Positions 4,421 through 19,783 of a stretch of 64,000 bases of DNA are shown here, piece by piece (position 1 is the stretch's first letter; the number at the start of each line of letters is the position of its first letter). The DNA is taken from the NCBI RefSeq assembly GCF_009914755.1, contig NC_060938.1, one strand, 5' to 3'. The notes beneath the pieces were generated by a model that was not told the DNA's origin, ran no database searches, and worked only from the letters and a program-made list of their open reading frames with translations. Both the position numbers and the translations under genes were made by a program. The DNA comes from the human T2T-CHM13v2.0 reference genome, Homo sapiens.

Positions 4421-6316
4421 AGGACAAGATGGCAGAAAAGAAGTCTCCACCAATTATACCCTGTGCAAGGATATCAATTTAACAACTATCTACACAGAAA
4501 GAACACCTTCATAAGAACCAGAAATCAGGTGAGCACTCATAGTACCTGGTTTTAATTAACTTCATTTTACTGAAAGAGGCACTCAAGAAGTAGGAAAAAC
4601 AGTCTGGAATTGCTGGTGCCACTCCTCTCCCATCCCCTAGCAGTGATTGCATGGTGCAAAGCACTTCTGTGCCATGGGGAGAGGGAGAGCCAGCAATTGT
4701 GAGGCATTGAACTCAGTGCTGCCCTTGTTATAGCAGAAAGCAAAACCGAACCAAACTCAGCTGACACCCACCCACAGTGGGAGTATTTAAACCAGCCCTT
4801 GCCAGAGGAGAATCACCGATTCCAGTGGTTGTAACTTGCGTTTCTGCAAGCCTCACTACTGCCGGCTAAAGTGCTCTGGCACCCCAGACCAATGTGAAAG
4901 GCAGTCTAGGCCACAAGGACTGCAACACTTAGGAGAATCTTAGTGCTGAACTGGGCCCTGAGACAGTGGACTGGGGGGACATGCGACCTAGTGAGACACC
5001 AGCCAGGGCAGCCAAGGGAGTGCTGGCACTGCCCCTCCTCTAAACCCAGGCTGCTTAGCTTGCAGCTCCGAAAGAGACATCTTCCTTTCACTTAAGTAGA
5101 GGAGAGGGAAGAGTGGGGAGGACTTTGTCTTGCATCTTGGATACCAGATCACCCACAGCAGGATAGGAGAGCAGTAAGAGCTGTGAGGCCCCCTTTCCAG
5201 GCCCTAGATCCCAGACATTTCTAGATATACCCTGGGCCAGGAAAGAATCCACCACCTTAAAGGGAAGGGCCCAGTCCTGGTAGGATTCATGACCTGCTAA
5301 CTGAAGAGCCCTTAGACCCTGAATAACCAGCAGCAATACCCAGGTACTATGTCAAGGGCCTTGAATGAGACACTGAGACTTGCTAGCTTTAGGTGAAACT
5401 CAGCACTTTACAGCTGTGGTGGCTATGGGGCAAAACTTCTGCTTGAGAAAAGTGAAGGGAAAAGTAAAAAAGACTGTCTCACATCTTAGGTACCAGCTCA
5501 GCCACAAGAAGGTGGAGAACCAAGTGGGTTCTTGGGGTCCCCAGTTCTAGGACTTGGCTCTTGGATGGCATTTCTGGACCTGCCCTGGGCCAGAGGGGAG
5601 CCCATTCCCCTGAAGAGTGAGTCTCAGGCCAGGCTGACTGAAGATACTTCAGGTCTTAAGGGAATATTGGCAGTAGTCTGGCAGTACTCCCCATGGGCCT
5701 GAGGTGCGAGTGTCCACAGGGTAAGACTCCTCTGCCTTTGGGAATGAGTGAGAAGCACTGCATCTTGTGGTTTGAGTGCCAGTTAAACCACAGTACAATA
5801 GAACACAAAGTAGACTTCCAAAGTTTTTGACTGTAGCCACTGGCTCCCAGGCAGCATCTCTGGACCCACCCTGGGGCTAGAGGAAATCAGGAAATTTCCT
5901 GAAGGGAAAGACATAGGCCTGGCTGGCTTTGCCACTTGTGGACTGTAGAGCCCCAGGGTTTTTAGTGAAATAGGTGGTAGCCAGGGAGTAGTTATAGCAG
6001 GCCTTGGGTGAGACCCAGTGCTGTGCTGGCTTCAGGTCTGACTCAGCACAGTCCTGATGGTGGTGGCCACAGGAGTGACTGTGTCATTCCACCCCCAGCT
6101 CCCAGTGGCTCAGAACAGACAGAGTCTCTGTTTGTTTGGGAGAAAGTAAGGGAAGACAACAAGAGTCTCTGCCTGCTTATCTAGAGAATACTTCTGGATC
6201 TTGTCTAAGATGATCAAAGCAGTATCTCTACAAGTCTGCAATAACCACAGTATTACTGGGCTTGGTGTCCCCCCCTAAAACAGATACAGCATAGATCACA
6301 ACTCCCAAGTTCTTTT
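4421..6316 (+). mobile_element. Old L1 (L1M1/L1MA-type) 5' UTR; host of the nested block, segment 1
   Basis: aagatggcagaa...aacaactatctacac...caccttcataagaacc...aggcagtctaggccacaaggactgcaa, characteristic of the L1M1 5' end. Confidence 0.75.
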
Positions 6317-18211: not shown

Positions 18212-19783
18212 GAAAAATGCAATTGGCATACTGAAGAATGCTTCTGTGTCTTTTAATAGCAGAATTATCAGGCAGAAGACAGAATTACTGAGCTTGAAGA
18301 TAAGCTATTATAATATTTGAAAATACACAGTCAGAGGAGACAAAAGAAAAAAGAATAAAAAACGATGAAGCAGGCTGGGCATGGTGGCTCATGCCTGTAA
18401 TCCCAGCACTTTGGGAGACTGAGGCGGGCAGATCACTTGAGGTTGGGATTTCAAGACCAGCCTGACCAACATGGAGAAACCCCATCTTTACTAAAAATAA
18501 AAATTAGCCAGGTGTGGTGCACATGCCTGTAATCCCAGCTACTGGGGAGGCTGAGGCAAGAGAATTACTTGAACCAAAGAGGCAGAGGTTGCAGTGAGCC
18601 AAGATCATGCCATTGCACTCCAGCCTGGGCAACAAGAGCGAAACTCCATCTCAAAAAGAAAAAAAAAAGATGAAGCACACCTACAGGATCTAGAAAATAG
18701 CCTCAAATCTCAGAGTTATTGGCCCCAAAGAAGAGGTAGAGAAAGAGATGGGGTAGAAAGTTTATTCAAAGGGATAATAACAGAGAACTTCCCAAACCTA
18801 GAGAAAGCTATCAATATCCAAGTACAAGAAGGTTATAGAACACCAAACAGATTTAGCCCAAAGAAGACTACCTCCAGGCATTTAATAATCAAATTGCCAA
18901 AGGTCAAGGACAAAGAAAGAGTCCTAAAAGGAGCAAGATAAAACAAACAAATAACATACAACAGAGCTCCAATATATCTGACAGCAGACTTCTCAGTGGA
19001 AACTTCACAGGTCAGGAGAGAGTGGCATGGCATATTTAAAGTGCAGAAGGAAAAAAATTTTTACCCTAGAATAGTATATCTGGCAAAAAATATCCTTCAA
19101 ATATGAAGAAGAAATAAAGACTTTCCCCGACAAACAAAAGCTGAGGGATTTCATCAACATCAGACCTGTCTTACAAGAAATGCTAAGGGGAATATTTCAA
19201 TCAGAAAGAAAATGATGTTAATAAGCAATCATCTGAAGGTACAAAACTCATTAGTAATAGTAAGTACACAGAATATTATAACTCTGTAATTGTGATGTTT
19301 AAACTACTCACATCTTAAGTAGAAAGATCTTAAGTAGAAAGATGTGAGTAGTTTAGTATTAGTAGTATTTTATGTGAAAAGATGAACTGAACAAAAAGTA
19401 ATAACTTCAAGACATAGTACAAATAAGGTATGAATTAATAGTAACAACAAAAAGTTAAAACATGGGGGGACAAAGTTAAGGCATAGAGTCTTTATTAATT
19501 TTATTTTTGCTTGTTTGCTCATTTGTTAATGCAAACATTGTTAAGTTGTTATCAGCTTAAAATAATGGCTTATAAGATAGTATTTGCAAGCCCTATGGTA
19601 ATCTCAAAACAAAAACCATATAACAGATACACAAAAAGAAAAAGCATGAAACTAAATTATATCACCAGAGAAAACCACCTTCACCAAAAGGAAGATAGAA
19701 AGAAAAGAAAGAAGAAAGAGAAGACCAGAAAACAAATAATAAAATGGCAAGAATAAGTCCTTATCCCCCATAATAACATTGAA
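18212..19783 (+). mobile_element. L1M1 host segment 3 (ORF1, inter-ORF region, start of ORF2)
   Basis: gaaaaatgcaattggcatactgaagaatg...; ORF1-like peptide ENFPNLEKAINIQVQEGYRTP...RHLIIKLPKVKDKERVLK. Confidence 0.85.
18373..18668 (+). mobile_element. AluS
   Basis: Full dimer with A tail; TSD gatgaagca on both sides. Confidence 0.9.

What the first reader, a model, noticed from the sequence alone, without database searches (positions are those of the whole stretch)
6301..18220. Inversion by L1-L1 recombination, shown by crossed TSDs and a flipped host element
Seen: the old L1M host is plus-strand at 4421-6316 and 18212-19783, but its connecting piece (12425-14062) is minus-strand. The TSDs of the two younger L1PAs are swapped. 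The tail flank of the minus L1 (rc of 6301-6316, aaaagaacttgggagt) matches the 5' flank of the plus L1 (14047-14062, aaaagaactttggtgt). The 5' flank of the full-length minus L1 (rc of 12425-12433, gaaaaatgt) matches the tail flank of the plus L1 (18212-18220, gaaaaatgc). Inference: the ancestral state was a 5'-truncated minus L1 and a full-length plus L1. A crossover within their shared region inverted at least 10467-14062, so both present L1s are chimeras and the L1 sense and antisense promoters now face the opposite way. Non-allelic recombination between inverted retroelements is an established inversion mechanism.
Basis: partly seen in the sequence, partly recalled or inferred. Interest (0 to 1): 0.85.

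Follow-up and report, generated by a model that had tools for sequence, protein, structure and literature searches.

The report
Small inversion between two inverted L1s
Two old L1 retrotransposons lying head to head on human chromosome 14 recombined with each other and flipped the DNA between them, a well-known kind of event, and they have exchanged sequence again very recently.

Summary
The observation and the interpretation both hold. A full-length minus-strand L1PA (6317-12424) and a 5'-truncated plus-strand L1PA (14063-18211) flank 12425-14062. An independent L1 ORF1 protein (P0021) maps residues 1-90 to the minus strand of 12427-13965 and residues 89-264 to the plus strand of 18213-19043, overlapping by two residues, which is the 8-9 bp duplication. 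In 9 of 9 other genomic copies of the host L1 family, 4820-6316 (+) and the reverse complement of 13849-14062 are colinear on one strand. In 7 of 9 they overlap by the 14-16 bp duplication. Only breakpoints inside the two L1PAs restore both duplication pairs. Trees support chimerism: all 17 reference L1PAs group the same way at the 5' and 3' ends, and the minus L1 alone switches sides. New here is that the inner 1657 bp of the shared region are perfectly identical (8810-10466 and 14063-15719). That implies gene conversion within roughly 1-2 million years. The crossover point, the age of the inversion and any polymorphism remain open. The mechanism is known (Lee et al. 2008) and no gene is affected, so interest is modest.

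The parts
4820..6316 (+). Left piece of the old host L1 (5' UTR), verified portion
   Evidence: Aligns on one strand at 71-77% over about 1.5 kb to most of the 9 other genomic copies; two align only in part
6301..6316 (-). Outer copy of target-site duplication a (16 bp), next to the tail of the minus L1
   Evidence: 14 of 16 match to 14047-14062 after reverse complement. Single-copy at this position in other family members
6317..12424 (-). Full-length L1PA, now chimeric: the 3' end is from the formerly truncated element and the 5' 1958 nt from the formerly plus-strand full-length element
   Evidence: Tree discordance between 5' and 3' ends
8810..10466 (-). Arm of the 1657-bp perfectly identical inverted repeat (L1 nt 1959-3615)
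   Evidence: Exact match. The repeat finder pair I1
10467..14062 (.). Minimum inverted segment, which is the spacer between the homologous arms (L1 nt 1-1958 plus the host middle piece), 3596 bp
12425..12433 (-). Inner copy of target-site duplication b
   Evidence: 8 of 9 match to 18212-18220 after reverse complement. Equals the two-residue overlap in ORF1
12425..14062 (-). Flipped middle piece of the host L1: end of the 5' UTR (13966-14062), ORF1 aa 1-39 (13849-13965) and ORF1 aa 40-90 (12427-12582), interrupted by an LTR-type element
   Evidence: tblastn with P0021. Colinearity in other copies
12583..13848 (+). Older LTR-type insertion inside the host ORF1 (direct repeats 12585-12830 and 13495-13845, 82% alike), carried along by the inversion
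14047..14062 (+). Inner copy of target-site duplication a, next to the truncated 5' end of the plus L1
14063..18211 (+). 5'-truncated L1PA (L1 nt 1959-6108), inferred to be chimeric, 96% identical overall to the minus L1
   Evidence: Its 3' end lies on the opposite side of the 91/95 split from the minus L1
14063..15719 (+). Second arm of the 1657-bp perfectly identical inverted repeat
18212..18220 (+). Outer copy of target-site duplication b
18212..19209 (+). Right piece of the host L1 (ORF1 aa 89 to its end), with an Alu at 18373-18652

Best explanation
Two L1PA elements inserted independently, head to head, into an older L1. One was a minus-strand copy truncated at L1 nt 1959. The other was a plus-strand full-length copy 1.6 kb to its right. 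Later, homologous recombination with crossover between their shared 4.15 kb, on one chromatid, inverted everything between the exchange points.

The inverted block is at least 10467-14062. Its length is 3596 bp plus twice the distance of the crossover from L1 nt 1958. The inversion moved the full-length 5' end to the minus strand, crossed the target-site duplications and made both L1s chimeras.

The two copies kept interacting. A gene-conversion tract that runs from the inner edge of homology made 1657 bp identical. Zero differences in 1657 bp, at recalled mutation rates of 0.5-1 x 10^-9 per bp per year, gives a 95% upper limit of about 0.9-1.8 million years.

Shown: the flipped host piece, the crossed duplications, the colinearity of both L1s and the identity tract. 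Inferred: crossover as the mechanism, its position, and whether the recent conversion and the inversion were one event.
For: - Right junction: host ORF1 aa 1-90 lies on the minus strand and aa 89-264 on the plus strand, with a two-residue overlap. An independent weaker reference, the third L1 in the window, gives abutting coordinates nt 1478-1588 and 1583-1663.
- Left junction: 9 of 9 other family copies are colinear on the same strand, and 7 of 9 show a 14-16 bp overlap exactly at the duplication.
- Crossed duplications match at 14/16 and 8/9, while each element's own pair does not match.
- Both L1s align end to end with reference copies, with no junction gain or loss.
- Chimerism: the 5' split {L014, L016, L017, L020, L022} versus {minus L1 plus 13 others} has support 100/99. 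The 3' split (support 91/95) puts the plus L1 with all 12 references that sat with the minus L1 at the 5' end, and puts the minus L1 with the other 5. All 9 panel-B references in the 3' tree, chosen only by likeness to the minus 5' part, lie on the plus L1's side.
- Conversion: there are 0 differences over 1657 bp, where other copies differ from the pair by 2-8%. The pair shares 36 variants in nt 1959-3639 that are rare among references.
- The mechanism and the duplication criterion are in print: Lee et al. 2008, PMC2603318, sections 6, 7 and 19 read.
Against: - No second genome or haplotype could be examined, so the uninverted state is reconstructed and not observed.
- The 3' split is not at the tool's starred level (91/95), and the bootstrap had not settled.
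- An AU test did not reject placing the minus 5' part next to the other group (p 0.38). That constraint differs little from the free tree, so the test says little either way.
- Reference panels were chosen by likeness to the two L1s, which biases counts of private mutations.
- The crossover point is not fixed. A change point near nt 4850 is weak (215 of 5000 permutations reach it). In nt 3900-4850 the pair are sisters with unequal branches (0.034 versus 0.012), which no simple history explains.
Confidence: 0.9

Rival explanations
1. Assembly artefact: the segment between the two near-identical arms was placed in the wrong orientation in this assembly, and the real chromosome has the uninverted order.
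For: The arms include 1657 bp of perfect identity, the kind of repeat across which orientation can be mis-set. No reads were available to me.
Against: Arms plus spacer total about 6.9 kb, which is shorter than the long reads used for such assemblies (general knowledge, not checked here). The chimeric pattern of the minus L1 needs a crossover beyond the identical tract, or a real exchange, unless the mis-join lay exactly within the tract.
Confidence: 0.03
2. The inversion arose by non-homologous breakage and rejoining, or by replication template switching, with both breaks falling by chance inside the two L1s.
For: Lee et al. 2008 report many inversions with a retrotransposon at only one breakpoint (section 6), so not every repeat-associated inversion is homologous.
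Against: Both L1s are colinear with reference copies along their full length, with no deletion, duplication or filler. That requires breaks at exactly equivalent L1 positions.
Confidence: 0.04
3. There was no inversion: the middle piece is an independent fragment of another old L1, and the flank matches are chance.
For: The short matches alone are only moderately unlikely (12 and 59 of 3000 random flanks).
Against: The middle piece ends at ORF1 residue 90, where the right piece starts at residue 89. Its other end continues the left piece base for base in other copies.
Confidence: 0.01

Closest known systems
L1 recombination-mediated inversion (L1-RMI, a class of RRMI; Lee et al. 2008, PLoS One, PMC2603318)
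   Same: Two oppositely oriented L1PA copies span both breakpoints. The elements become chimeric and their target-site duplications no longer match within an element. The size lies within the reported 166 bp-81 kb range (sections 6, 7 and 19 read).
   Different: That catalogue rests on human-chimpanzee differences. Here the event is inferred from one genome, with a nested old L1 as the internal ruler. I could not see Table S1 (supplements closed), so I cannot say whether this locus is listed.
Human polymorphic inversions mediated by inverted repeats, such as HsInv0341 on chr13 with 6.2-kb L1PA3 repeats (Aguado et al. 2014, PMC3961182)
   Same: Inverted L1 copies act as the substrate for non-allelic homologous recombination. 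Highly identical arms are linked there with recurrence (passages seen).
   Different: Polymorphism is not known at this locus. The chr14 entries in that paper's table lie at 34.08 and 60.14 Mb (hg18), not here. The arms here are old copies that differ by 4-12% outside the converted tract.
L1 twin priming (5' inversion within a single insertion; cited from the abstract listing of PMC2837659, and from general knowledge)
   Same: It gives L1 sequence in two orientations side by side.
   Different: Twin priming gives one poly-A tail, one duplication pair and no host DNA between the parts. Here there are two tails facing outward, two duplication pairs and 1.6 kb of host DNA between the parts.

Membership tests
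Retrotransposon recombination-mediated inversion (L1-RMI) | Two elements of one family, in opposite orientation, spanning the two breakpoints | tested here: met
   Minus L1PA 6317-12424 and plus L1PA 14063-18211, 96% identical over 4163 aligned bases
Retrotransposon recombination-mediated inversion (L1-RMI) | Target-site duplications fail to match within each element but match across the pair | tested here: met
   Crossed pairs match at 14/16 and 8/9; each element's own pair scores 2 and -2. The duplications are single-copy in reference copies
Retrotransposon recombination-mediated inversion (L1-RMI) | Intervening DNA inverted relative to both flanks | tested here: met
   Host L1 ORF1 and 5' UTR are colinear only after flipping 12425-14062
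Retrotransposon recombination-mediated inversion (L1-RMI) | Both elements chimeric | tested here: met
   The minus L1 is the only one of 18 sequences with both ends (17 references plus itself) that changes side between the 5' split (100/99) and the 3' split (91/95). Support is moderate. Chimerism of the plus L1 is inferred, not shown on its own
Retrotransposon recombination-mediated inversion (L1-RMI) | Uninverted arrangement present in an outgroup or another haplotype | not testable with these tools
   Only this one genome is held. No ape genomes or other human haplotypes are available
Polymorphic or recurrent NAHR inversion (InvFEST type) | Both orientations segregate in the population | not testable with these tools
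   Searches for the locus in print found nothing.
L1 twin priming | One insertion with a single duplication pair, one poly-A tail and no host DNA between the inverted parts | tested here: not met
   Two outward tails (6317 and 18211), two duplication pairs and 1638 bp of host DNA between the L1s

The most novel reading that the evidence does not exclude
The inversion is as young as the perfect 1657-bp tract (under about 2 million years), so it would be human-specific. It may still be polymorphic, or may flip recurrently between the two identical arms, as an uncatalogued small inversion at 14q11.2 between OR6J1 and OXA1L.
Probability: 0.12. Interest if true: 0.5.

Novelty: new member of a known kind. 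Interest (0 to 1): 0.3.

Why it matters
This is a clean single-genome example of a repeat-mediated inversion. A nested older L1 gives base-level proof of both junctions without any outgroup genome. The perfect 1657-bp tract shows that two L1 copies of middling age (their nearest other copies are 92-94% identical) still exchange sequence. That keeps a substrate for further flips and can mislead dating of the elements. No annotated gene or functional element lies in or next to the segment, so no phenotypic effect is expected.

Tried and rejected
- Pfam on the short coiled-coil pieces found no L1 trimerisation domain. PDB sequence searches with the two junction pieces gave only chance hits or none.
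- tblastn of those pieces against the window found no second copy of the host ORF1 N-terminus.
- Scans of genome contigs and viral contigs with P0021 gave one unhelpful locus (L001) and nothing.
- The AU test of the minus 5' part against the other reference group was uninformative (p 0.38).
- Site painting with two reference groups showed that the pair share all group-diagnostic states between nt 1949 and 4803. The crossover therefore cannot be placed that way.
- The maximum chi-square change point at nt 4840/4858 is weak (215 of 5000 permutations) and may reflect how the references were chosen.
- Literature searches for the locus and passages of Aguado 2014 and Giner-Delgado 2019 gave no entry for it.
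- Pfam did not support my recalled likeness of 19783-19991 to a ribosomal protein.

Full report
**What is there**

The window holds two L1PA elements in opposite orientation. The minus-strand element runs from a poly-T at 6317 to its 5' end at 12424 (6108 bp). The plus-strand element runs from 14063 to a poly-A ending at 18211 and corresponds to L1 nt 1959-6108. They are 96% identical over 4163 aligned bases. Between them lie 1638 bp of other DNA (12425-14062).

**The flank matches**

The reverse complement of 6301-6316 matches 14047-14062 at 14 of 16 bases. The reverse complement of 12425-12433 matches 18212-18220 at 8 of 9. Each element's own upstream and downstream flanks do not match; their best scores are 2 and -2 on the scale where the crossed pairs score 10 and 6.

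Against random 40-mers of the window, 12 of 3000 and 59 of 3000 reach the observed scores. That null is lenient because I let A-rich tail bases count. The short matches alone are suggestive rather than decisive.

**The host element as a ruler, right junction**

Pfam places the L1 ORF1 RRM-like and C-terminal domains on the plus strand at 18753-19190. The 53 residues read from the minus strand of 12427-12585 found 149 proteins (E at or below 0.01, among 192 candidates) in the large protein collection. Several of these carry the L1 trimerisation and RRM Pfam domains.

One of them, P0021 (267 aa), served as an independent reference for the host's ORF1. It maps as follows:
- Residues 1-39 map to 13965-13849 on the minus strand (74% identity).
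- Residues 33-90 map to 12609-12427 on the minus strand (84%).
- Residues 89-138 map to 18213-18362 on the plus strand.
- Residues 125-264 map to 18633-19043 on the plus strand.

The reading frame of the old host L1 therefore runs leftwards through the middle piece. It stops at residue 90 at the 5' end of the minus L1PA. It resumes at residue 89 on the other strand just after the tail of the plus L1PA. The two-residue overlap is the 8-9 bp duplication. A weaker reference, the third L1 in the window, gives the same abutment (nt 1478-1588 and 1583-1663).

**Left junction**

The window's own genome can be searched. The 214 bases upstream of and into the host ORF1 start (reverse complement of 13849-14062) found 40 scored copies of the same old L1 family at 82-86% identity. 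I examined nine of them with flanks (L003-L011).
- In all nine, 4820-6316 (+) and the reverse complement of 14062-13849 lie on the same strand and in the same order.
- In seven (L003, L004, L005, L006, L008, L010, L011) the two alignments meet, with an overlap that is the duplication. The overlap is 14-16 bp in six of them. In L005 it is 10 bp as aligned, or 16 by projection, because that alignment starts at 14056.
- In L007 the left alignment stops 52 bp short, next to a deletion.
- In L009 about 380 extra bases lie between the two alignments.

The left piece, the flipped middle piece and the right piece are thus one old L1, cut twice by the L1PA insertions.

**Why the breakpoints lie inside the L1PAs**

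Re-inverting only the minus L1 plus the middle piece (6317-14062), or only the middle piece plus the plus L1 (12425-18211), would set the two copies of one duplication side by side with nothing between them. Only an exchange within the shared L1 region gives back two ordinary insertions. These are a minus-strand copy truncated at nt 1959 with duplication a, and a plus-strand full-length copy with duplication b.

Both present L1s are colinear with reference copies along their whole length. The exchange was therefore at equivalent positions, as in homologous recombination. This matches the published mechanism and its duplication criterion (Lee et al. 2008, PMC2603318, sections 6, 7 and 19 read).

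**Test of chimerism**

I took 28 reference L1PA copies that scored best against the plus L1 (panel A). I added 10 that scored among the best against the minus L1's unique 5' 1958 nt (panel B).

- A tree of L1 nt 660-1958 has 19 rows; L019 was left out as a long outlier. It splits L014, L016, L017, L020 and L022 from the minus L1 plus 13 others with support 100/99.
- A tree of nt 4851-6108 has 39 rows; L051 dropped out for low coverage. It has a split with support 91/95. That split puts the plus L1 with all 12 references that had sat with the minus L1, and puts the minus L1 with the other five.
- All 17 references with both ends keep their side. The minus L1 alone changes side.
- All nine panel-B copies in the 3' tree were chosen without regard to the 3' end, and all lie on the plus L1's side.

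This is what the model predicts: the 5' part of the minus L1 and the 3' end of the plus L1 were once one element.

Caveats are as follows. The 3' split is below the tool's starred level and the bootstrap had not settled. An AU test of the 5' part was uninformative (p 0.38). The reference panels were chosen by likeness to the two L1s.

From the inner edge of homology the two L1s are identical for 1657 bp (8810-10466 and 14063-15719). The match does not extend into the spacer.

- In that stretch other genomic copies differ from the pair by 2-8% per 300-bp window.
- The pair shares 36 variants in nt 1959-3639 that are rare among the references.
- From nt 3616 to about 3880, shared rare variants and differences alternate: 9 shared-rare sites and 7 differences.
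- Beyond nt 4059 the pair differ by 4-12%, like unrelated copies.

One copy therefore overwrote the other. With recalled mutation rates of 0.5-1 x 10^-9 per bp per year, zero differences in 1657 bp put the last event within about 0.9-1.8 million years (95% limit). This dating is an inference.

**What stays open**

- The crossover position. It could lie in or next to the converted tract, giving an inverted block of about 3.6-7.4 kb. It could instead lie near nt 4850, giving about 9.4 kb. The balance of private mutations changes there, but only weakly (215 of 5000 permutations).
- The history of nt 3900-4850. The pair are sisters there (100/93) with unequal branches of 0.034 and 0.012. I cannot explain this. 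Older conversion and bias from the choice of references are both possible.
- The age of the inversion and whether it varies among people. Neither can be read from one genome.
- Prior description. I found no mention of the locus in print.

**Verdict**

It is a further example of a known mechanism in a gene-free stretch, so interest is modest. The young identity tract is the one feature that could make it more than that.

Noticed in passing
window 12583-13848 (+): An LTR-type element with direct repeats (12585-12830 and 13495-13845, 82% alike), an internal part and a 5-bp flank repeat (GTCAC/GTCAT). It splits the host L1 ORF1 between residues 39 and 40. Related pieces lie at 11-569, 1989-2393, 52303-52650 and 56653-57050.
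   Followed up: partly
window 18373-18652 (+): An Alu inserted in the host L1 ORF1, with a 25-bp target-site duplication (18348-18372 and 18653-18677, 92% alike).
   Followed up: partly
window 19992-23509 (+): A third L1, 5' portion only (L1 nt 13-3228). It is 86% identical to the L1PA pair over nt 567-3228 and about 70% in the 5' UTR. It lies just right of the host L1.
   Followed up: no
window 26057-27861 (-): An older L1 fragment (L1 nt 4090-5915, 75% identical to the L1PA pair).
   Followed up: no
window 7575-8525 and 16004-16954 (L1 nt 3900-4850): The two L1PAs are sisters here (100/93) with a shared stem of 0.0076, but their own branches are 0.034 (minus) and 0.012 (plus). This may reflect an older patchy conversion or bias from the reference choice. 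Unexplained.
   Followed up: partly
window 19783-19991 (+): Short open frames that by recall resemble the N-terminus of a ribosomal protein (possibly a processed pseudogene fragment). Pfam gave no support.
   Followed up: partly
own genome: Many matches to the plus L1 stop at query 3756-3833 (L1 nt about 5714-5791). This suggests a variable stretch near the ORF2 end or 3' UTR start among these copies.
   Followed up: no
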